A stretch of 31,562 nt of DNA, from IMG/VR virus record IMGVR_UViG_2645727555_000016, positions 1 through 31,562 of that record. The stretch is one strand, 5' to 3'. This document shows, in pieces, positions 11,962-31,510 of this stretch; position 1 is the first letter of the stretch; every line of letters begins with the position of its first letter. Below the pieces are notes generated by a model. That model was not told where the DNA came from and made no database searches. It was given only the letters and a program-made list of their open reading frames with translations. The stretch is from a virus. Lineage: Duplodnaviria > Heunggongvirae > Uroviricota > Caudoviricetes. Both the position numbers and the translations under genes were made by a program.

Positions 11962-12216
11962 ATGAGCTATGGTGCACAGGTATGGTCGCCATCAAGACAG
12001 GAGATGGTCGATGCGTTGGCCCCTGTTTATTACCTCGATTATTTTACTCCCTCTGGTTCTGGAAGTAGAACATATGAGGTTGAGGCGGGATTGGGAATCG
12101 ACTATTACATAATGGACGTAACCAATGGGAAATACACAAGTCTTACGGTTTCTGGAAATACCATTTCATGGTCTGGAGCTAGTGGCAATTTAAACATATT
12201 GGTTTTTCAAAAATAA
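11962..12216 (+). CDS. Hypothetical small protein downstream of the tail fibre
   Basis: 84-aa ORF; stop overlaps the next start (TAATG); no recognisable motif. Confidence 0.4.
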   Translation: MSYGAQVWSPSRQEMVDALAPVYYLDYFTPSGSGSRTYEVEAGLGIDYYIMDVTNGKYTSLTVSGNTISWSGASGNLNILVFQK

Positions 12217-14795: not shown

Positions 14796-15215
14796 ATGCT
14801 AAATTATCATGACAATACGCGTTCTATGCAGACGATCCGCACCAATACTGCGGTTATCGACAGCTTTCCTATGCGTATTCACAACAGTGAAGACGCAGTA
14901 GAAGTGCGACGTATGTTGTGCCGTGAATCAGCTAACCGCCAGCACTTCATCGTCACTTTTAAGAGCGATGTGGCGCGTGCCGAAAAGGTCTCTAATTCTA
15001 CGTCACTGGTTAAACCGTTGGCCGAGGTTGTCGCTAACGGTAAACGAACCTCTTTTGTTTTAGATGTTGCTGAACAATATCCTGACTTGAAGTGTTTAGA
15101 TCGTGATATTTCTTCACGAATCAAACAAGTTGTAGAGTCTTTTATGAAGAAATTCTGTAAAATCGATGATATGGAACCATCAACGGCACAGAATACTTCA
15201 TGGCACCATCTCTAA
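14796..15215 (+). CDS. Hypothetical protein
   Basis: 139-aa ORF after a structured intergenic region; overlaps the start of the next ORF. Confidence 0.35.
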   Translation: MLNYHDNTRSMQTIRTNTAVIDSFPMRIHNSEDAVEVRRMLCRESANRQHFIVTFKSDVARAEKVSNSTSLVKPLAEVVANGKRTSFVLDVAEQYPDLKCLDRDISSRIKQVVESFMKKFCKIDDMEPSTAQNTSWHHL

Positions 15216-15973
15216 TTGGTCAGGCGAACAGATTAATCCCTGAAATAGAAGACTACAGCAAGGTCTTGTCTGAAATGCCGAGAGCGACGAGAATTATCGC
15301 TCTCGGTGAGTTCTATTTTATCTCCCGAGGTTTCGATCTAATTCGATTTACCGAATACGAGCTTGTTGATTCGGCCTATGAACGCTGTATTGTTGGCGAG
15401 TGTCTTGAGTCATGTGATCCTGATTACCAAGAGCAGGAAGTTAAGCGACTCAAACGTGCTGGTTACACACCTCTTGAGATAGGAGCAGAAATTGAATCCT
15501 ACAAGTTGCATGTGGGGCAGCCAGTCCAAACAGTCTTCCGCGTGGCCTACTGCGAGTTTCCAATCAAGGATAAATCTGGAGTAAAAGTCAGCGCCAAGCA
15601 GATTAGAGGGGTTTTTACTCATGCTGATTATATGGGATTAGGCATCGCAAGTTTTGCTTACCTTTATCTCGTAGATAAGTATCAGTACTTGGTTTGCGAT
15701 ACGTTACAGACGATAAAAGGCGCAACTCTTTGGGCTGTGAGTATGCGCAAACATGGACTGGTCGAAATTTACGATACGAAGAACGAAAATTTTATAGAGG
15801 AATTGGGTGAGGATGCCTGTGGCGTAAGTGGTTTTATTCCGTGGGATATCGGTAAGTCTGACGGAGGCCAGATGCGAAGACGTGAAGAGTGGGGGACTAA
15901 TAAAATCAATCTCACCCCAGGTGCTTGTACTCATATAGTGAACATTCTGAGTAAACGATCTATGAATCAATAA
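15200..15973 (+). CDS. Hypothetical protein (weak GNAT-like G-x-G-x-A motif; start uncertain)
   Basis: 257-aa ORF followed by a strong intrinsic terminator; segment HADYMGLGIASFAYLYLV loosely resembles an acetyl-CoA binding motif; not confirmed. Confidence 0.35.
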   Translation: MAPSLIGQANRLIPEIEDYSKVLSEMPRATRIIALGEFYFISRGFDLIRFTEYELVDSAYERCIVGECLESCDPDYQEQEVKRLKRAGYTPLEIGAEIESYKLHVGQPVQTVFRVAYCEFPIKDKSGVKVSAKQIRGVFTHADYMGLGIASFAYLYLVDKYQYLVCDTLQTIKGATLWAVSMRKHGLVEIYDTKNENFIEELGEDACGVSGFIPWDIGKSDGGQMRRREEWGTNKINLTPGACTHIVNILSKRSMNQ

Positions 15974-15995
15974 ACCCGCTACGGCGGGTTTTTTG
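15974..15995 (+). terminator. Rho-independent terminator (CCCGC-TACG-GCGGG followed by TTTTTTG)
   Basis: Perfect GC-rich 5-bp stem, 4-nt loop and 6-T tract directly after the stop codon of ORF 15200..15973. Confidence 0.7.
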
Positions 15996-16121
15996 TTATT
16001 AAGCCCACCTATGTACCTATCATTAAACCTTTACACCGCAGCCGTAGGCATTTAGGCTATATCACATATAAGAAAACAAGTTGTTTCAGACGATAATTAT
16101 ATACGCAAAGGGAACTCTCCA

Positions 16122-16790
16122 ATGACCAAGATCTTTGTGGTTGGCGGCACAAAGGGCGGGCCTGGCAAATCCACCGTTGCCCAGCAAATTGCCGTTTGCC
16201 TGAAAGTCAAAAAGAAGAAGAAGGTTTATATCACTGATATAGATATTCAGCGCACGACAACAAGCTGGTGTGAAGACCGTCGACAGAACGAAGACCTTGA
16301 GCTGATTCCTTTTGCATACGTTCAGGATGACATCATTAAGCACCTAAAATCGCTTCAGGGTAGAGCTGAGTTTGTAGTGGTAGATGCTGGTGGCTTTGAC
16401 TCCGAAATTCAGCGACAAGCGATGCTGATGGCCGACGTTATCATTATCCCGCTTCGTCCTAAGCGTCGTGATTTGAAATCTCTGCGTGACATTGATCCTA
16501 TTATCGACAATGTTCGTAATGTAAACGATAAAGTGAAGGTCCGCGCGGTCATGAACCAGTGCCCGGCTTTGCCATCACAAGTGTCTCGCATTCTGGCGGC
16601 TAAAGAGATTGTTGAGACGTTTGGCATCGAGTCTGCGCCAGTCAATCTATATAACCGCAACGTCTATGATGATGCGGAAGAGTCTGGTCGTTCTATCTTT
16701 GAAATGACCGGTAGCGAGCGCGACAAAAAGGCGGAAGCCGAGTTTGAAGAATTTGTAGATTATCTGTTGAGTCTGGAGGAAGAAGAATAA
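16122..16790 (+). CDS. parA: ParA-family partition ATPase (small type Ib, ParF-like)
   Basis: Deviant Walker A box GGTKGGPGKST (KGGxxK[ST]) at the N-terminus; 222 aa; followed by a small DNA-binding-type gene. Confidence 0.7.
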   Translation: MTKIFVVGGTKGGPGKSTVAQQIAVCLKVKKKKKVYITDIDIQRTTTSWCEDRRQNEDLELIPFAYVQDDIIKHLKSLQGRAEFVVVDAGGFDSEIQRQAMLMADVIIIPLRPKRRDLKSLRDIDPIIDNVRNVNDKVKVRAVMNQCPALPSQVSRILAAKEIVETFGIESAPVNLYNRNVYDDAEESGRSIFEMTGSERDKKAEAEFEEFVDYLLSLEEEE

Positions 16791-17149
16791 TGTCCATGAA
16801 AATGGGTGACCTAGCAAAGCGCAAAGAGCCTGATGCACCGGCTAAGAACACAACTCCTTTGCGCCAACCAGTCAGACCACAGGGACGCCCGACTCGTGGC
16901 AAAGAGAAAATTAAAAGCCGCACAATGTCACTGGAAGACGAATACTTCGAACTGCTGGAGATGATGAAGTTCATCCCTCGCTTCGAGAAATTCACCCGTT
17001 CTGACGTGATTCGCGCAGCCATTTTCCATCTGGCAGAGAAGTCACCGCAGGAAATCGAGGACATCGTGAAACTTAACGAGGCAATCACAGCTGCCGATGT
17101 CACGATGCGTACCGATGAAATTAAACGAGAGTTGATGAAGAAAGGTTGA
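16790..17149 (+). CDS. ParG/ParB-like centromere-binding protein candidate (partner of ParA)
   Basis: 119 aa; start overlaps the parA stop (ATGA); basic Pro/Arg-rich N-terminal tail and helical C-terminus, as in RHH-type small partition proteins. Confidence 0.45.
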   Translation: MSMKMGDLAKRKEPDAPAKNTTPLRQPVRPQGRPTRGKEKIKSRTMSLEDEYFELLEMMKFIPRFEKFTRSDVIRAAIFHLAEKSPQEIEDIVKLNEAITAADVTMRTDEIKRELMKKG

Positions 17150-17193
17150 TAAGAGAAGGCGTGATTAGACGCCTTCTCTTAAAAGGTATATTT

Positions 17194-17949
17194 ATGCTTT
17201 ACAAATATGTTGGAAGTAGCGTCCCGGAAGACACAATAAAGTATTTAAAGTATTACTTAGAAGATGGGAAAATTCGAGCAACTCGTCCGAATGATTTCAA
17301 CGATCCTGCCGAGTTTAAAGTTAATTTTGATTATGATGCTGATATAGACGCCATTAAGAAAAGATTTTTTGAGCTTTGGCCTAATCATCACAATGATGAA
17401 TTTGAACGCTGGTTATTGAGTCAAACAGAACATAGTCGCAGTTTTGATAACTATATGATTAGAACAACTTTTCTGCAGTGTCGGGGAGTTATTTGTTTGA
17501 CAAAAAGACCAGATAATTATCTTATGTGGTCGCATTATGCGCATTCTCACTCTGGTTTTTGCATCGGATTTGATGATGGTTTTATAAATGCGTTTGATGA
17601 TGTTTTTTTTGTTCGCGGTGAGGTCAAATATTCCTCTGATGTTCCGGTTGTAAATTTTTTTACCGACTCAGCTAAAGAGATTGCAGCGGCTCTTTGCCTA
17701 AATAAAAGCGATGTCTGGGAATATGAAGAGGAGGTTAGAATCGTAACCGAGAATTGTGGCGTGAAATTATTTGATAAATCCTTAATTAAGGAAATAACAA
17801 TAGGTTGTAAGGCTAGCAGTCAACTTCAAAATTATGTTCATCAACTATTTGATTCAGGTATCGAAATCTACAAAATGAAGTGCCCTCCAGGATCGTATAA
17901 GCTGGAAAAAATAAGATTAGAGAAAGATACTGATTTTCTTGGATACTAG
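17194..17949 (+). CDS. DUF2971-family protein (domain recurrent in defence islands), AT-rich
   Basis: N-terminal LYKYVGSS and NDFNDPAEF, central LMWSHYAHSHSGFCIGFD; these match the DUF2971 signatures as recalled (LYKY start, FNDP.E, MWSHYA); low-GC coding sequence relative to neighbours. Confidence 0.5.
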   Translation: MLYKYVGSSVPEDTIKYLKYYLEDGKIRATRPNDFNDPAEFKVNFDYDADIDAIKKRFFELWPNHHNDEFERWLLSQTEHSRSFDNYMIRTTFLQCRGVICLTKRPDNYLMWSHYAHSHSGFCIGFDDGFINAFDDVFFVRGEVKYSSDVPVVNFFTDSAKEIAAALCLNKSDVWEYEEEVRIVTENCGVKLFDKSLIKEITIGCKASSQLQNYVHQLFDSGIEIYKMKCPPGSYKLEKIRLEKDTDFLGY

Positions 17950-17971
17950 TATTGGTAGTATCAACAATTAT

Positions 17972-18034
17972 GACCTGCTTCCGTATATAATAAGTATCTT
18001 AGTATATATATATATACGGAAGCAGGTCTTTTAA
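17972..18034. terminator. Long perfect 18-bp inverted repeat (GACCTGCTTCCGTATATA / TATATACGGAAGCAGGTC) with an AT-rich alternating TA loop, followed by TTTT; bidirectional terminator or recombination/origin-like hairpin
   Basis: Arms 17972..17989 and 18011..18028 are exact reverse complements; loop contains a (TA)n run; T-tract follows. Confidence 0.55.
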
Positions 18035-18109
18035 AAGACACCACCAGAACAACTCCCTTCCGTTTCCACTTCCAAAAACTGCCACCAGTCGCTATCATCC
18101 GCTCATTGT

Positions 18110-18132
18110 GATAAGTAAGTAACTACCTACCA
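18110..18132 (+). promoter_or_regulatory. Conserved intergenic motif GATAAGTAAGTAACTACCTACCA (instance 3), immediately upstream of the 18143 start
   Basis: 13-nt core identical to instance 1 except the last base; followed by a CTACC segment as in instances 2 and 4. Confidence 0.45.
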
Positions 18133-18142
18133 GGTGAGCCAC

Positions 18143-18883
18143 ATGAGCCAAATCTTTTTCGATACCATCGACAACGACCAGTACGACTTCATGACAGAGT
18201 GGAATACCGCTGTTATGGACAAGTGGGTCGCTGAAAACATTGGTTTGTCGCGCTGTAAAGACGAGGCTGAACTCTTCGAGACGAAGTGGTTTGATTACCG
18301 TGACATGCATCCTCTCATGGCCACCTGTCTTTTTACGGAGGCATACAAACGTCAGTACTCAAATATCATGCTGACGCACGGTCGCGAACACTTTGAAACA
18401 GCTCCGTTCACCACCGGGTTAAAACGCCTGCCTTATCAGGAGTTGTCGACTGCCAATAAAACGTCGCTATGGAAAGCACGCCAGTTTGCGGATCGCTATT
18501 GCTGCTCATACGACTACTTTATCTCCACCGTTCTTTCCGCAGCTGCACGACGGCTGTGGGACAAGCTGCCGCGCCCACAGCATTTGTGGCAGCCAGAACT
18601 GATTGAGATATTTGAAGAGAAATTAGCCAGACGCGCAACAACCCGTCTGGATGACTCTCTTGTTAGCTTTAAGCATATGGGAGACATGCAGTTCAACCCG
18701 ATTCAGGAAAGCTATTTTGAGTGGATTCTGGAGCGTTTGCGCACCATCCCTCGCAGCAAGCGCATACGCGCAATTTTCTCCGCTATCTGGCTAATGGAAA
18801 TCGTTCCAGAGCGCCTTATTTCCGCCCACTTTCCAGAAGAACTGGAAGAAGCACGGCGGTTTATTGATCCCCTATCTAATTAA
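18143..18883 (+). CDS. Hypothetical protein at the head of the replication module (possible helicase loader or initiator; unsupported)
   Basis: ORF 18134..18883 (GTG) with a likely ATG start at 18143; no recognisable motif; precedes the DnaB-like helicase. Confidence 0.4.
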   Translation: MSQIFFDTIDNDQYDFMTEWNTAVMDKWVAENIGLSRCKDEAELFETKWFDYRDMHPLMATCLFTEAYKRQYSNIMLTHGREHFETAPFTTGLKRLPYQELSTANKTSLWKARQFADRYCCSYDYFISTVLSAAARRLWDKLPRPQHLWQPELIEIFEEKLARRATTRLDDSLVSFKHMGDMQFNPIQESYFEWILERLRTIPRSKRIRAIFSAIWLMEIVPERLISAHFPEELEEARRFIDPLSN

Positions 18884-18926
18884 CTAATACTAGAAAACAA
18901 TTTGTTTAAAAAACAAAGGAAAGCAC

Positions 18927-20267
18927 ATGACCGAACTTTGCCATACAGGACGCGGGCTGTCCGAAGAGTTTGATGAAGATTTCCAGAACAGACTGACGGC
19001 ATATTTTTGTCGTGATCACGAGTTTCTTACTCGTGCGGGAGATCTGGTTGTGCCTAGCCAATTTGCCAATGCGGCCAATGCCATATTGGTTAATATGGTT
19101 TCGGGCTATTACCGTATGTACAAGAGCGCGCCCTCTTCATCTGCAATTCTGGATATGCTTAAGCGTGCGAAACGCGATAAGACTATCCGTGAGGAACTAT
19201 TCGCCGATGTTGTTGCTGCGTTTAAGCGCATTCTTGCAGAAAAATTGTCCGATACCTCGTACATGGTTGACCAGGTATCAACCTTCGCAAAAAGTGTAGC
19301 GTTTGATGATGCTCTGATTAAGGCTGCTGAACTGAAAGAGAAGGGCGACTTTCAGGGGGCGATGGCAATCATGGCCAAGGTTCAGCAGATTGGATCGAAC
19401 GAAGCGACCGGAATCTATGACTACTACACCTCCGCAAGTGAGCGATTGAAAGCGCGTGAATATGAGGCTTCAGAGGAGTATGTGCCAAACAGCATTACAA
19501 CTGGACTCCCTCTGCTTGATAGATTGCTGTACCAAAAAGGCTGGGCAAAGCGCGAAATGGTGCTCTTCATGGGGTTCGCTAAATCCGGTAAATCGACCGC
19601 AATGGGTGAGTTTTCCATAAACGCAACGCTTGCTGGCTACAATGTTCTGTATCTCTCGCTGGAGGTTCACACCACCATTTTATCCGACCGTTTTGATGCA
19701 AGATTGTCGGAGACAGAAATGTCCAAGCTGGTGGAACGGCGCGATGAGGTTCATCGTAAGTTGGCAGAGTTGGGAGCCACGAAGGGGATTGGTAGTTTGT
19801 GGGTGGTTGAGCGTCCGTCAGGAAGTATGTCACCGGCAGATCTGGACCGTATGCTTAACAGCATGAAAGCCAACGGCATGGTACCTGACATGGTTGTTGT
19901 CGACTACGCAGATTTGATGCGTGCCAGTTATGACCTTCGTGATGATCGCGCCAACATTCGTAGCATCTACACCGATTTACGTGCTCTTTATGACAAGCAT
20001 AATGTTGCTGGGATCACGGCATCGCAGACAAACCGTGAAGGTGGCGCGTCAGAAGTTGCCACAATGATGCACGCTGCCGACAACATCGAAAAAGTACGTA
20101 TTGCTGACCTGGTAATAACGATCAACAAAACCGAAGAAGAAGAAGCGAAAGGAGAGGCTCGTCTCTACTTTGCTGGTTCACGTAACCAGCAGGGAGGGAT
20201 CAGCATTCGCGTTAAACAAAACCTCGAACAAATGCGCTTCATTGAGCGAATCTTAGACGTTACCTAA
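18927..20267 (+). CDS. DnaB-like replicative DNA helicase (RecA-fold C-terminal ATPase)
   Basis: Walker A GFAKSGKST, Walker B-like MVVVDYADLM; 446 aa; N-terminal helical domain plus C-terminal ATPase. Confidence 0.6.
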   Translation: MTELCHTGRGLSEEFDEDFQNRLTAYFCRDHEFLTRAGDLVVPSQFANAANAILVNMVSGYYRMYKSAPSSSAILDMLKRAKRDKTIREELFADVVAAFKRILAEKLSDTSYMVDQVSTFAKSVAFDDALIKAAELKEKGDFQGAMAIMAKVQQIGSNEATGIYDYYTSASERLKAREYEASEEYVPNSITTGLPLLDRLLYQKGWAKREMVLFMGFAKSGKSTAMGEFSINATLAGYNVLYLSLEVHTTILSDRFDARLSETEMSKLVERRDEVHRKLAELGATKGIGSLWVVERPSGSMSPADLDRMLNSMKANGMVPDMVVVDYADLMRASYDLRDDRANIRSIYTDLRALYDKHNVAGITASQTNREGGASEVATMMHAADNIEKVRIADLVITINKTEEEEAKGEARLYFAGSRNQQGGISIRVKQNLEQMRFIERILDVT

Positions 20268-28982: not shown

Positions 28983-29797
28983 TATTGGATGGCAAAATTG
29001 TTATGGGCCGCCGCGTTTTCTCTCTGATGAAGCAGTTCCTTAGCTGGTGCGCCTTCCAGGGGATGATAGACGTGTCACCGTTAAACGATATGTCACTAAA
29101 CAAAGTTGCCGGTGGCGCAAAGCCCACACCTCGCGAGCGGAAGCTGACCGACGCAGAGGTATGGGTGTTCTGGAATATATGGGACTACTTCAATGTGTGC
29201 GCTGGTACAAAATGGGCGGCCAGGCTGTGTCTTGTATCAGCAAGACGACCTGACGAAGTACTGCGGGCTAAAAAAAGTGAGTTCAATCTTAAGCGTGGGG
29301 TTTGGAATCAAGGCAAAAGAAACAAGTCAGCACGTGAGCATTCGCTGCCTTTAAGCACATTAATGCGCACATGCATTGAAGAGTTGTTCGAATACGGTAA
29401 AGACAGCCAGTGGCTCGTGCCTTCGAATAAAAAAATCGGGAAAGACCTTCCTATGTCTAAAGTGGCAATATCCCAGGCATTACGTCGTATTCTGGAACGA
29501 CCAGAACTGATGGAGCTTGAGCCATTTACACCCCGAGATTTGCGCCGTACTGCGCGTAGTTACTTCCCAGCATTAGGCATAAGCCAGGAGGTATCACGCA
29601 AAATTATGAACCACAGTCTTGAGGGGATAGATCGGGTCTACGACCGGCACGATTATATGGACGAGATGCGAGACGCCTTAGAAAGTTTCTCGACGTACAT
29701 CGCATCAATCGTAGAGCAACCGGATTTAGACGAAATTGACCACAAATTCAAGGGAGATCGTCTATCAACAGAGCTTATTCGTGTAAATTTTTCATAG
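28955..29797 (+). pseudogene. P4-type tyrosine recombinase/integrase, N-terminally truncated (catalytic domain only); probable remnant
   Basis: C-terminal signature PFTPRDLRRTARSY...IMNHSLEGIDRVYDRHDY resembles P4-family integrase boxes (R...HxLRRT...H...Y), but Arg replaces the usual His in HDLRR and the roughly 100-150-aa N-terminal arm-binding region is absent. Confidence 0.55.
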
Positions 29798-30178
29798 AGA
29801 CTTTATGGCCTCAACAACCTTTTGTGATGCGCCTTTCTCTTTACCGAATCGCTCGTTATATGCAGCAAGAACCTGTTTTTCGTCCTCGTTAAGAGGAGCG
29901 GTGCCTTCTTTGTATAAAAATGCTGCGAGTTCAGGTTGGCGTTCTTCCAGCACCATCATCATTAGACGACTTGGCTCAATACCCAGCGCCAGCGCCAACG
30001 GACGAACCTTATCGATAGGCAAAGGAATTTTGCCACTTTTAATTAAAGAAAGGTTGTTGGCATTTTTATAACCAATAAGTCTGGCTATTTGGGCCTGACT
30101 CATAGGTGAGGATTCAATCAGCCCTGCGATAAAAGCAGCATAGCGACTTTCTATAAATTCAATCTTGTTGTCAGACAT
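29792..30178 (-). CDS. XRE-family helix-turn-helix transcriptional regulator (Cro/CI-like)
   Basis: HTH segment SQAQIARLIGYKNANNLSLIKSG near the N-terminus; 128 aa; divergently oriented to downstream + strand genes, with a palindrome in its upstream region. Confidence 0.6.
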   Translation of the reverse strand: MSDNKIEFIESRYAAFIAGLIESSPMSQAQIARLIGYKNANNLSLIKSGKIPLPIDKVRPLALALGIEPSRLMMMVLEERQPELAAFLYKEGTAPLNEDEKQVLAAYNERFGKEKGASQKVVEAIKSL

Positions 30179-30209
30179 TGTTACAACCTTTGCGCGTTTA
30201 ATTCTCTCT

Positions 30210-30223
30210 GGTAAGTGCTTACC
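30210..30223. promoter_or_regulatory. Palindromic operator candidate GGTAAG-TG-CTTACC, 32 bp upstream of the XRE regulator start
   Basis: Perfect 6-bp inverted repeat; the GGTAAGT half-site matches the core of the recurring motif. Confidence 0.4.
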
Positions 30224-30428
30224 GATATTACATCAAAGGTTAGGGTTGTAAAGCTATTATCATTTTTTCGGCAGGCACTTGTAAGACCGAGCAAAGGTCC
30301 ATGCATGGAGAAAAACTAGCCCAAAATAGGTAAGAAAATTAACTTGCATCTGATATAGATGCATTCAGTATTGATACAAATTTTAGTAGTATTCCTTACC
30401 ATAGTATAAGTTAGAATGGATTGATTGA

Positions 30429-30641
30429 ATGAAAACCACTATTTCCAACCTAATCGCTCTTGAGATCGGACACGTACAGAAATTAGCTGATGAGTGTGTA
30501 GCTGACATCCTCACCGATCTACCGAATGAGCAGATTCAGGTTGGTGTGAATGACACAACTGGCTTTATATTCGAACTTAACAACAAACGCTTCACGCTTC
30601 TCAATACCGGCTCCGGGTCTTTAGCCGTCAGAATCTGTTAA
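30429..30641 (+). CDS. Hypothetical small protein
   Basis: 70-aa ORF downstream of the divergent regulatory region; followed by 9-bp inverted repeat CTGCGCGAA / TTCGCGCAG. Confidence 0.35.
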   Translation: MKTTISNLIALEIGHVQKLADECVADILTDLPNEQIQVGVNDTTGFIFELNNKRFTLLNTGSGSLAVRIC

Positions 30642-30739
30642 CCCCTCTTCTCCCTGCGCGAATGGCTTAGTTCCCTGTTCGCGCAGTGCTACATTAAACA
30701 CACTAGTAAATAATTTGTTTTCATAACAAAGGATTAGCC

Positions 30740-31510
30740 ATGTCTAAAAAACGTTCCATCAAAGAGGTTCAGGACTTCCGTGACAGTGTAAAACGAGTAG
30801 TCGCTCTCCTTTCAGGTAAAAACATCCCTGTTGCAGAACGAGGGGACGACGCTTATGTACGCTATAGCGATGATGGAGAGCCAATTCTCGTAAACATCCC
30901 ATCAATCCCGGATAACGCAACACCGGCATTGATGAATGCTGTGCGCGGATTTCTCGATCATGAGGTTGCTCACATTTTGTTTACCGATATTCGTGTGTCC
31001 AACAAAATGAGAGAAAAAGGACGCGTTCCTTCCTGGTCACTATGGAATGCCTTAGAAGACGTGTTCATCGAGCGAAAAATGGGGCAGGTCTTTAACGGAA
31101 CGAGACGTAATCTGATGGCAACTCAGCGCCTTATAATCGAAAAAGTCTTTAAACCAAAGGCTTCAGAGGCTATTGCTTATTGTGGCAAAGATCAGCGCGC
31201 GCTTTTTCTAAACTTCTTTCTCTGTCCGGTTGCAAGAGCCTGGGATGGCCAAGCACCGTTCGTAGATTTCATGGATGAATACTGGCCTGTCATTGAGAAA
31301 CCAATTTCATTATTAAAAGAACATGGTATCGATGTGGCCGTGCGTAACATGTCTTGCACCGAGGATTGTGTAAAGGTGGCTGCGACCATAGCTAAGATCC
31401 TCAAAGACACTGAAAGTGAAAGCAAAGGTAAGGAGTCAGCTCCGGGAAAAACTTCCGATCCTTCAGACGCTGAACCGCCCCGGGTTTCCTGGAGAGTGTT
31501 TTATCTGTGA
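30740..31510 (+). CDS. Hypothetical protein with HExxH motif (possible zinc metallopeptidase-like); last 41 nt lie inside the terminal inverted repeat
   Basis: Motif DHEVAHILFTD contains HEVAH; RBS AAGGA upstream; 256 aa. Confidence 0.4.
   Translation: MSKKRSIKEVQDFRDSVKRVVALLSGKNIPVAERGDDAYVRYSDDGEPILVNIPSIPDNATPALMNAVRGFLDHEVAHILFTDIRVSNKMREKGRVPSWSLWNALEDVFIERKMGQVFNGTRRNLMATQRLIIEKVFKPKASEAIAYCGKDQRALFLNFFLCPVARAWDGQAPFVDFMDEYWPVIEKPISLLKEHGIDVAVRNMSCTEDCVKVAATIAKILKDTESESKGKESAPGKTSDPSDAEPPRVSWRVFYL

What the first reader, a model, noticed from the sequence alone, without database searches (positions are those of the whole stretch)
16000..17149. Plasmid-type partition module (ParA plus small centromere-binding protein) inside a phage gene set
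A ParA ATPase with deviant Walker A box (KGGPGKS) is followed by a translationally coupled small basic protein. Together with the replication genes, this suggests the element can be maintained as an extrachromosomal phage-plasmid rather than, or in addition to, integrating. The centromere site is probably in the 16000..16120 leader or near the 17972 hairpin.
Basis: partly seen in the sequence, partly recalled or inferred. Interest (0 to 1): 0.5.

Follow-up and report, generated by a model that had tools for sequence, protein, structure and literature searches.

The report
Partition genes of a phage-plasmid
This is the plasmid-partition cassette (a small ParA ATPase plus a small DNA-binding partner) of a well-known SSU5/pECOH89-type phage-plasmid of E. 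coli. It is ordinary in kind, but its partner protein and its centromere have never been characterised.

Summary
parA (16122..16790, 222 aa, KGGPGKS at residues 11-17) overlaps by one base (TAATG) a 119-aa basic protein (16790..17149).

The window is 99.3-100% identical to the circular phage-plasmid pECOH89, a member of the SSU5 family. The module occurs in 264 of 5,426 complete E. coli genomes, always on plasmids and never on a chromosome.

ParA is closest to ParF of TP228, a type Ib ParA. It is not close to MinD or Soj.

The partner belongs to a tiny family with no Pfam match (phrog_5111, 'unknown'), and phage Cyrano mislabels it as a RelE/ParE toxin. Its layout suggests a ParG/omega-like centromere binder: a conserved N-terminal MGDLAK(R/K) peptide, a disordered basic tail, then a strand-helix-helix stretch with weak, in-register RHH hits. 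Fold searches were uninformative, so the RHH fold is not proven.

No iterated centromere repeats exist. The best candidate is a 77-bp leader core (16015-16091) that is 91-97% conserved where synonymous sites are 54-64% conserved. The 17972 hairpin looks like a terminator.

Unexpectedly, the leader's palindrome AAACA-N3-TGTTT is a genome-wide element next to promoters (10-15 copies per element). It also persists in pMT1, which lacks this module.

The kind of system is known, so interest is modest.

The parts
15972..15991 (+). Intrinsic terminator of the upstream cargo genes. It marks the left boundary of the par module.
   Evidence: The terminator scan finds an 8-bp stem (5 G-C pairs) followed by a T run. 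Similarity to relatives starts at about 15970-16015.
16015..16091 (+). Conserved leader core, containing the promoter region plus an operator. It is the best candidate for the centromere and autoregulatory site. The block upstream of the palindrome (16015-16066) has no second copy elsewhere in the plasmid.
   Evidence: It is 91-97% identical in 7 relatives from Salmonella, Klebsiella, Citrobacter and E. coli, whereas parA synonymous third positions are 54-64% identical and parA overall is 78-84% identical. No other copy of the upstream block was found in pECOH89.
16030..16058 (+). Putative sigma-70 promoter TTTACA-N17-TAGGCT (inferred). An alternative reading is TAGGCA(16045)-N16-TATAAG(16067).
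   Evidence: Read directly from the sequence. The same geometry, TTGACC-N17-TAACAT, sits at the aligned position in the distant relative L014. The generic promoter scan did not call it.
16070..16086 (+). Operator-like palindrome AAGA-AAACAAgTTGTTT, between the promoter and the ribosome-binding site. It is one copy of a dispersed, genome-wide motif.
   Evidence: It is invariant in all 10 aligned leaders. The AAACA-N3-TGTTT core occurs 10 times in pECOH89, 11 times in Cyrano and 4 times in pMT1, against about 0.1-0.3 expected.
16122..16790 (+). parA: a small, type Ib-like deviant Walker A partition ATPase of 222 aa.
16790..17149 (+). Small partner protein of 119 aa, the putative centromere-binding protein. 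It has an N-terminal MGDLAKRK peptide, a disordered basic tail (residues 1-47), a predicted strand-helix-helix at about residues 43-84, and two C-terminal helices.
   Evidence: It is expressed in the Cyrano lysogen at 89 against a median of 9.8.
17150..17181 (+). Perfect 13-bp inverted repeat immediately after the stop codon: a terminator-like hairpin, not a centromere.
   Evidence: I15. Relatives carry different G+C-rich hairpins, or the next gene, at this position.
17191..17949 (+). DUF2971 cargo gene. It is variable among relatives and is not part of the partition machinery.
   Evidence: Pfam DUF2971, 3.7e-10. It is absent or replaced in relatives.
17972..18028 (+). Long hairpin (18-bp arms, A+T-rich 21-nt loop) followed by TTTT. 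It is a conserved terminator-like boundary between the par region and the replication-gene cluster.
   Evidence: I1. The arms are conserved and the loop varies in SSU5 and in a Salmonella plasmid, where the hairpin directly follows the par operon.
18891..18907 (+). Second copy of the dispersed palindrome (AGAA-AAACAATTTGTTT), 19 nt upstream of the DnaB-like helicase gene.
30708..30720 (+). Degenerate copy of the palindrome (AAATAATTTGTTT), 19 nt upstream of ORF 30740. It is a perfect copy at the orthologous place in pMT1.

Best explanation
This is the active-partition cassette of an SSU5/pECOH89-type phage-plasmid. It works like a type Ib (ParF/ParG or delta/omega type) system.

Shown here:
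- a small deviant Walker A ParA, closest to ParF
- a translationally coupled 119-aa partner that always accompanies this ParA
- strictly plasmid-borne occurrence
- expression of both genes in a lysogen

Inferred:
- Dimers of the partner bind the conserved leader just upstream of parA, through a ribbon-helix-helix-like domain at about residues 43-84. This forms the partition complex and represses the par promoter.
- ParA-ATP dimers coat the nucleoid.
- The partner's disordered basic N-terminal tail, with its conserved MGDLAK(R/K) peptide, stimulates ParA's ATPase. The resulting ParA gradient then pulls the few plasmid copies (about 5 per chromosome in Cyrano) apart before division.

The exact centromere is not identified. 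The best candidate is the 77-bp leader core, 16015-16091.
For: - ParA identity and class: ParF 4dzz, 1.2e-10, aligned over residues 9-199; ParA_partition 1.9e-33 against MinD 1.3e-6.
- Gene overlap TAATG.
- The partner family is tiny, 18 clusters among 1.84 billion representatives. Even members 26-40% identical sit directly behind a ParA, after the tail-fibre and lysis genes.
- Architecture conserved down to 26% identity: an N-terminal G-x-L-x-K motif, a variable linker, and invariant R44, S47, E49, R70, D72, R75.
- AF2 models give a disordered residue 1-47 and helices at 48-59 and 70-82.
- RHH signals, all in the same register: aCcr1 RHH family 2.3e-4; Pfam RHH_1 0.0053 and 0.11 for two family members; hhalign against the NikR RHH domain P=7e-4, with that domain verified as PF01402.
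- The leader core is 91-97% conserved against 54-64% at synonymous sites.
- Extrachromosomal state.
- Lysogen RNA-seq of Cyrano, a close relative (module 98.7% identical): ParA 49.8 and partner 89.1 against a median of 9.8. The distant ParB/Srx genes are silent, at 5.0 and 9.5 (PMC9928086 S1 table).
Against: - No iterated repeat array of the kind that defines known type Ib centromeres is present in the leader or the flanks.
- ParA scores below NCBIfam's ParA_partition cut-off (115.7 against 180).
- The only obvious symmetric site in the leader is not specific to par.
- No experiment on this system was found in the literature.
Confidence: 0.75

Rival explanations
1. The 119-aa protein is both the centromere-binding protein and a global repressor. 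It binds the dispersed AAACA-N3-TGTTT palindromes, so these act as multiple centromere-like sites and as operators that silence lytic and replication promoters. The precedents are omega of pSM19035, KorB of RK2 and SopB of N15.
For: - The palindrome is invariant in every par leader of the closer family, and it sits where a type Ib partner would autoregulate.
- It recurs 10-15 times per element, directly 3' of -10-like hexamers and 11-45 nt before start codons.
- In the Cyrano lysogen, 12 of 13 palindrome-preceded genes are at or near background. Only the par operon is clearly on, as expected for the operon that makes the repressor.
- The prophage immunity region lacks this palindrome and has a different one, GGTAAGTGCTTACC.
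Against: - pMT1 of Y. pestis has no homologue of this ParA or of the 119-aa protein (tblastn). Yet it keeps perfect palindrome cores at all four orthologous promoters examined, including two where the E. coli relatives are degenerate.
- The three most distant family members keep the putative DNA-reading strand (SRTxS), but their par leaders lack the palindrome.
Confidence: 0.2
2. ParA's real partner is the pair of ParB/Srx-domain proteins encoded about 33 kb away next to the packaging genes. The 119-aa protein is only a transcription factor or an unrelated small protein.
For: pECOH89 and Cyrano encode two ParB N-terminal-domain proteins. The pECOH89 announcement lists both 'parA' and 'parB' (PMC3999498).
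Against: - These genes are silent in the lysogen, at 5.0 and 9.5 against a median of 9.8.
- They lie beside the terminase genes, and pMT1 keeps them although it uses a P1-type parAB.
- Small ParF-like ParAs are known to pair with the adjacent small protein. The 119-aa gene is overlapped with parA and is linked to it in all relatives.
Confidence: 0.05
3. The 119-aa protein is a RelE/ParE-type toxin, as annotated for CYRAN_29 in phage Cyrano, so the pair is not a partition cassette.
For: Only the depositor's annotation and the 'moron' list of PMC9928086.
Against: There is no Pfam or NCBIfam toxin hit even at E up to 10. There is no antitoxin partner. The architecture (disordered basic tail plus helical domain) and the constant linkage to ParA do not fit a toxin.
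Confidence: 0.02
4. The ParA-like ATPase and its partner serve a function other than plasmid segregation, such as positioning of another cargo or a phage-specific role, in the way of MipZ/McdAB-type systems.
For: The best Pfam hit is MipZ, and some RefSeq records name the protein 'division plane positioning ATPase MipZ'. The ParA_partition equivalog cut-off is not reached.
Against: - The MipZ match covers only the N-terminal half, whereas ParF aligns over nearly the whole length.
- The element is a low-copy plasmid with no other partition system in its annotation.
- pMT1, which lacks this module, carries a P1-type parAB instead.
Confidence: 0.05

Closest known systems
ParF-ParG-parH of plasmid TP228 (type Ib partition)
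   Same: - ParF is the closest solved structure to this small ParA (1.2e-10 over residues 9-199).
- The gene order is ATPase, then a small partner.
- The partner has a disordered basic N-terminal tail followed by a probable ribbon-helix-helix domain.
- The candidate cis site lies upstream of the ATPase gene and overlaps the promoter.
   Different: - There is no sequence similarity to ParG and no Pfam ParG hit.
- The partner is longer, 119 aa, with two extra C-terminal helices.
- No array of tetramer boxes is present. The leader holds one 13-bp palindrome and two TAGGC repeats.
delta-omega of pSM19035 (type Ib; omega is also a global regulator)
   Same: - Omega is an RHH protein with a flexible N-terminal tail that stimulates the ParA-type ATPase (established knowledge).
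- Omega's N-terminus as I recall it, VGNLGAQKAKR, resembles MGDLAKRK here. This resemblance is from memory only.
- Omega binds at several promoters. That is the model for the rival reading in which the partner binds the dispersed palindromes.
   Different: No detectable sequence similarity. Omega sites are arrays of 7-bp heptads, not single palindromes. Binding of the palindromes by the partner is not shown here and is weakened by pMT1.
Partition systems of other phage-plasmids: P1 ParAB-parS and N15 SopAB with dispersed centromeres
   Same: The biological role is the same, namely stable inheritance of a prophage that replicates as a low-copy plasmid. N15 offers a precedent for centromere sites scattered near promoters (established knowledge).
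   Different: P1 and N15 use large type Ia ParA/SopA proteins with helix-turn-helix ParB/SopB partners. This system has a 222-aa ParA and a 119-aa non-ParB partner. pMT1, a relative within the SSU5 supergroup, carries the P1 type instead.
SSU5 / pHCM2 / pECOH89 / Cyrano (pLF82) phage-plasmids
   Same: It is the same module. Identity is 100% to pECOH89, 98.7% to Cyrano and 84% to SSU5, where the ATPase is already annotated 'ParA-like partition protein'.
   Different: Nothing differs at the sequence level. The partner is annotated 'hypothetical' or mislabelled as a toxin, and no centromere is annotated.

Membership tests
ParA/MinD-type deviant Walker A ATPases | Deviant Walker A motif KGGxxK[ST] with the N-terminal signature lysine, plus a Walker B-like hydrophobic stretch ending in Asp | tested here: met
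   KGGPGKS at residues 11-17 and VVVDAGG at residue 85. Pfam AAA_31, CbiA and MipZ are above their gathering scores.
Type Ib (ParF-like) partition ATPase | Small size (about 200-230 aa), no N-terminal helix-turn-helix domain, and closer to plasmid ParF than to MinD or Soj | tested here: met
   222 aa. ParF (4dzz, 206 aa) aligns over residues 9-199 at 1.2e-10, against Soj at 1e-4 to 1e-3. NCBIfam ParA_partition scores 1.9e-33 against MinD at 1.3e-6.
NCBIfam NF041546 ParA_partition (equivalog) | Score at or above the curated cut-off of 180 bits | tested here: not met
   115.7 bits. It is the best-matching family, but the protein is not an equivalog member.
Type Ib partition cassette | ATPase gene followed by a co-transcribed small centromere-binding protein gene | tested here: met
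   TAATG overlap. The linkage is kept in all relatives, including members 26-40% identical. Both genes are expressed together in the lysogen.
Type Ib partition cassette | Partner protein has a ribbon-helix-helix DNA-binding fold | tested here: inconclusive
Type Ib partition cassette | Partner has a flexible basic N-terminal tail that activates the ATPase | not testable with these tools
   The tail is predicted to be disordered (pLDDT below 50 for residues 1-23, no secondary structure to residue 47). It is basic, pI 11.4, and carries a conserved N-terminal motif. Activation of the ATPase itself needs biochemistry.
Type Ib partition cassette | Centromere made of iterated short repeats next to the operon | tested here: not met
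   No repeat array was found at 15900-18200. Only a strongly conserved 77-bp leader with one palindrome is present.
ParG (PF09274) / Omega repressor (PF07764) families | Sequence membership | tested here: not met
   No Pfam hits at E up to 10. hhalign against recalled ParG and omega sequences gave no match.
RelE/ParE toxins (annotation of the Cyrano homologue) | Sequence membership in the toxin family, with an adjacent antitoxin | tested here: not met
   No toxin family hit in Pfam or NCBIfam. The upstream gene is ParA, not an antitoxin.
SSU5-like phage-plasmids | Nucleotide identity and synteny with SSU5/pHCM2/pECOH89, and occurrence as an extrachromosomal circular replicon | tested here: met
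   There are 265 plasmid places and 0 chromosomal places in complete E. coli genomes.

The most novel reading that the evidence does not exclude
The 119-aa partner of ParA is also the protein that recognises the dispersed AAACA-N3-TGTTT palindromes, of which there are 10-15 per element, next to the promoters of replication, packaging and other lysogeny-silent operons. One small protein would then couple plasmid segregation to silencing of the lytic programme. The scattered sites would serve as multiple centromeres, making this an omega/KorB/N15-SopB-like arrangement in a siphovirus phage-plasmid.
Probability: 0.2. Interest if true: 0.7.

Novelty: new member of a known kind. Interest (0 to 1): 0.33.

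Why it matters
SSU5-like phage-plasmids are common in clinical Enterobacteriaceae. They are present in about 5% of complete E. coli genomes here, and they carry resistance genes such as CTX-M-15 on pECOH89. Their stable inheritance depends on this cassette, yet the partner protein is unannotated or mislabelled as a toxin, and the centromere is unknown.

Three results are of practical use:
- The partner can be assigned as a probable ParG/omega-like centromere binder.
- The cis element can be narrowed to a 77-bp leader that is conserved beyond coding level.
- The par promoter shares an operator-like palindrome with a dozen lysogeny-silent promoters.

Together these give concrete targets for curing, incompatibility and regulation experiments. 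The kind of system is well known, however, so the finding as stated is not surprising.

Tried and rejected
- **Iterated centromere repeats.** I searched 15900-18200 with 6-nt seeds and counted k-mers in the leader. Only chance-level pairs turned up.
- **Other copies of the leader block.** A search for copies of 16015-16072 elsewhere in pECOH89 gave only random 12-mers with 1-2 mismatches.
- **The hairpin at 17150-17181.** Rejected as a centromere, because relatives have unrelated G+C-rich hairpins or the next gene at that position.
- **The hairpin at 17972-18028.** It is conserved but followed by a T run, and in one Salmonella plasmid it directly follows the operon, so it looks like a terminator. 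CTTCCGT occurs three times nearby, but two of those are the hairpin arms.
- **Motif scan of viral contigs.** A scan of IMG/VR for the extended palindrome returned a mix of SSU5-like and unrelated contigs. It did not help to identify the binding protein.
- **Site at 12192-12204.** This one-mismatch palindrome match lacks the AGA extension and a ribosome-binding site, so I treated it as chance.
- **Host-factor consensus sites.** I compared the palindrome with sites recalled from memory (IHF, KdgR, LacI/GalR family). None fits its spacing. This was not tested with tools.

Full report
**What is in the sequence**

ORF 16122..16790 (+) encodes a 222-aa protein that starts MTKIFVVGGTKGGPGKST. The deviant Walker A box KGGPGKS lies at residues 11-17, DIDIQ at residue 39 and VVVDAGG at residue 85. 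Its TAA stop codon shares one base with the ATG of a 119-aa ORF (16790..17149), in the sequence GGAGGAAGAAGAATAATG. Translational coupling is therefore plausible. The small protein has pI 9.56, made up of a very basic first 47 residues (pI 11.4) and an acidic remainder.

The cassette is bracketed by two structures. Upstream is an intrinsic terminator at 15972-15991. Directly after the second stop codon is a perfect 13-bp inverted repeat at 17150-17181.

**What element this is**

Window 15000-19000 is 99.3% identical over its full length to pECOH89 (NC_023916.1; circular, 111,741 bp). The par module itself is 100% identical to pECOH89. It is 98.7% identical to phage-plasmid Cyrano (pLF82) and 84% identical to Salmonella phage SSU5, where the ATPase is already annotated 'ParA-like partition protein'.

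The module occurs in 774 PLSDB plasmids from Klebsiella, Escherichia, Enterobacter, Salmonella and Citrobacter. Most are about 105-120 kb and non-mobilizable. Among 5,426 complete E. coli genomes, 264 carry it. All 265 copies are on plasmids and none is on a chromosome. The refutation criterion 'only chromosomally integrated' therefore fails clearly.

pECOH89 was described as a phage-like plasmid with parA, parB and repA (PMC3999498). SSU5-like elements are a recognised phage-plasmid supergroup (PMC7969092).

**The ATPase**

- Pfam MipZ, AAA_31 and CbiA are all above their gathering scores.
- PHROG phrog_164 'ParA-like partition protein' scores 4e-51.
- NCBIfam's best family is ParA_partition at 1.9e-33, but its 115.7 bits fall below the equivalog cut-off of 180. 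MinD scores only 1e-6.
- The closest solved structure is ParF of TP228 (1.2e-10, aligned over residues 9-199). Soj proteins score 1e-4 to 1e-3, and MipZ matches only the N-terminal half.

This is therefore a small, type Ib-like plasmid ParA, not a chromosomal MinD/Soj homologue.

**The partner**

The 119-aa protein has no Pfam family. It belongs to phrog_5111, 'unknown function', and is 'hypothetical' in RefSeq. In Cyrano it is annotated 'RelE/ParE putative toxin', a label that nothing here supports.

Its family is very small. There were 25 hits in the 5.8-billion-protein search, and 18 clusters at 50% identity among 1.84 billion representatives. Even the most distant members (26-40% identity) lie immediately behind a ParA gene, downstream of the tail-fibre and lysis genes.

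The alignment shows a conserved architecture:
- an N-terminal M-x-x-G-(D/G)-L-x-K peptide
- a variable linker
- a basic stretch ending in I-K-S-R-T-x-S-x-E-D-E
- an invariant R-S-D-V-x-R-A motif at the start of a helix

AlphaFold models predict residues 1-47 as disordered, and helices at 48-59, 70-82, 86-97 and 101-118.

This is the pattern of a ribbon-helix-helix protein: a strand at about 43-47, then helix 1, then a helix 2 that begins with S/T-x-S. Four weak signals agree in register:
- NCBIfam aCcr1, an RHH family, 2.3e-4
- Pfam RHH_1, 0.0053 and 0.11, for two family members
- hhalign against the NikR RHH domain, P=7e-4
- that NikR template is confirmed as PF01402

**Is the adjacent protein the real partner?**

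pECOH89 and Cyrano also encode two ParB/Srx-domain proteins about 33 kb away, beside the packaging genes. The published overnight-culture RNA-seq of the LF82 lysogen (PMC9928086, S1 table) bears on this. The median for Cyrano genes is 9.8.

| Gene | Expression |
|---|---|
| ParA | 49.8 |
| 119-aa protein | 89.1 |
| DUF2971 gene | 54.6 |
| ParB/Srx gene 1 | 5.0 |
| ParB/Srx gene 2 | 9.5 |

The adjacent small protein is thus expressed in the plasmid state and the ParB/Srx proteins are not. The same paper reports about 5.5 Cyrano copies per chromosome and induction by ciprofloxacin. A low copy number of that order needs active partition.

**The centromere question**

No iterated repeat array exists in the leader, inside the genes or in the flanks.

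The hairpin after the small gene is replaced in relatives by unrelated G+C-rich hairpins or by the next gene. It is therefore a terminator.

The long 17972-18028 hairpin has conserved arms and a variable loop in SSU5 and in a Salmonella plasmid. It is followed by a T run, and in that Salmonella plasmid it directly follows the par operon. It looks like a distal terminator rather than a centromere.

What stands out is the leader. Positions 16015-16091 are 91-97% identical in seven relatives, while parA synonymous third positions are only 54-64% identical. That degree of conservation over 77 bp is more than a promoter alone would need. This stretch is the best candidate for the partition and autoregulatory site. 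It contains:
- a probable promoter, TTTACA-N17-TAGGCT; a distant relative has TTGACC-N17-TAACAT at the aligned position
- two TAGGC repeats 8 bp apart
- a 13-bp palindrome, AAACAAgTTGTTT, at 16074-16086

**An unexpected finding: the palindrome is not private to par**

AAACA-N3-TGTTT occurs 10 times in pECOH89 and 11 times in Cyrano, with four further one-mismatch copies in Cyrano. About 0.2-0.3 copies are expected, with a maximum of 2-3 in 200 shuffles.

The copies carry a 5' AGA/AAGA extension. They lie directly 3' of -10-like hexamers and 11-45 nt upstream of start codons. The genes they precede include the DnaB-like helicase (window 18895), terS, nrdB and several small genes.

In the lysogen, 12 of the 13 genes preceded by the motif are at or near background. 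Only the par operon is clearly expressed. The motif therefore behaves like the operator of a repressor that is active in lysogeny.

The attractive reading is that the ParA partner itself binds it, as omega, KorB or N15 SopB do. Two observations argue against this:
- pMT1 of Y. pestis lacks both this ParA and the 119-aa protein and uses a P1-type parAB instead. Yet it keeps perfect palindrome cores at all four orthologous promoters examined, two of which are degenerate in the E. coli relatives.
- The most distant family members retain the SRTxS strand, but their par leaders lack the palindrome.

The prophage immunity region (window 30179-30428) carries a different palindrome, GGTAAGTGCTTACC, and no AAACA-type site. 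The 128-aa XRE regulator is therefore not an obvious binder either. The binder remains open. I put the partner at about 20%.

**Mechanism and verdict**

The best-supported model is a type Ib-like partition cassette.
- Shown: the identity and class of ParA, the constant linkage and overlap with the small gene, strictly plasmid-borne occurrence, and expression in lysogens.
- Inferred: the partner binds the conserved leader, represses the par promoter, and stimulates nucleoid-bound ParA-ATP through its basic N-terminal tail. This drives separation of the roughly 5 plasmid copies.

The element and its ParA are already known. The partner family and the cis site are uncharacterised. I found no paper on the centromere or the partner in the searchable literature. 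This is a new, uncharacterised member of a known kind of system, so interest is modest.

Noticed in passing
window 16070-16086, 18891-18907, 30708-20; pECOH89 3431, 31810, 34631, 65500, 76301, 76785, 80017, 80068, 92786, 93515: A dispersed palindrome next to promoters, (A)AGA-AAACA-N3-TGTTT, precedes 10-15 operons per SSU5-like element (helicase, terS, nrdB, small genes). It is strongly over-represented. In the Cyrano lysogen the genes it precedes are nearly all silent, apart from par. The binding protein is unknown.
   Followed up: partly
L021/L022 (Y. pestis pMT1, NC_003134.1) 28498, 37412, 37904, 89259: pMT1 lacks the SSU5-type ParA and its partner and carries a P1-type parAB instead. It nevertheless keeps four perfect copies of the same palindrome at orthologous promoters, and it keeps a 64%-identical homologue of the 128-aa XRE regulator.
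   Followed up: yes
L002 3776-4135 (Cyrano CYRAN_29), equivalent to window 16790-17149: The homologue of the 119-aa partner is annotated 'RelE/ParE putative toxin' and is listed among toxin 'morons' in PMC9928086. No toxin-family similarity was found, so this looks like an annotation error.
   Followed up: yes
window 14796-15973 and 17191-17949; L010-L012, L014, L019: The par module (about 16015-17151) is a fixed island between variable cargo slots. Upstream, relatives carry a GNAT/DUF1778 (KacAT) toxin-antitoxin pair, a HEPN protein or ApeA/HEPN. Downstream, they carry DUF2971, a P-loop NTPase, Abi_2 or nothing. This suggests a hotspot for defence and addiction genes around the partition genes.
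   Followed up: partly
window 30210-30223 (also Cyrano 42606, pECOH89 19317): A 14-bp palindrome, GGTAAGTGCTTACC, plus extra GGTAAG/CTTACC half-sites, lies between the 128-aa XRE regulator gene (29792..30178, minus strand) and a divergent 70-aa ORF (30429..30641). It is a candidate immunity operator. It is nearly conserved in pMT1 (GGTAAGTGCTTACT).
   Followed up: partly
window 18040-18133: The leader of ORF 18134..18883 (phrog_2500, unknown function, first gene of the helicase/primase cluster) has conserved blocks (CCCTTCCGTTTCCACTTCC, AAGTAAGTAA) that persist even in a distant Klebsiella relative. Their function is unknown; they could be related to a replication origin or to regulation.
   Followed up: no
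L018 6380-6420 (distant relative, GCA_028599065.1): Directly downstream of the distant partner homologue P0035 lies a cluster of AACGAAC/GTTCGTT repeats, including the palindrome AACGAAC-GCT-GTTCGTT. It could be that element's operator or centromere.
   Followed up: no
window 30740-31510: The ORF here is 256 aa. The corresponding pECOH89 gene (16691..18799, 'porphyrin biosynthetic protein') is about 702 aa. The window sequence near 31500 has no exact match in pECOH89, so the gene may be truncated or frameshifted in this element.
   Followed up: no
window 16790-16801: RefSeq starts the small gene at the second ATG (117 aa, WP_160378290.1). The first ATG (16790) overlaps the parA stop codon and has the better spacing to GGAGG. 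Relatives start with MKMGDLAK, so the true N-terminus is uncertain by 2-4 residues.
   Followed up: partly
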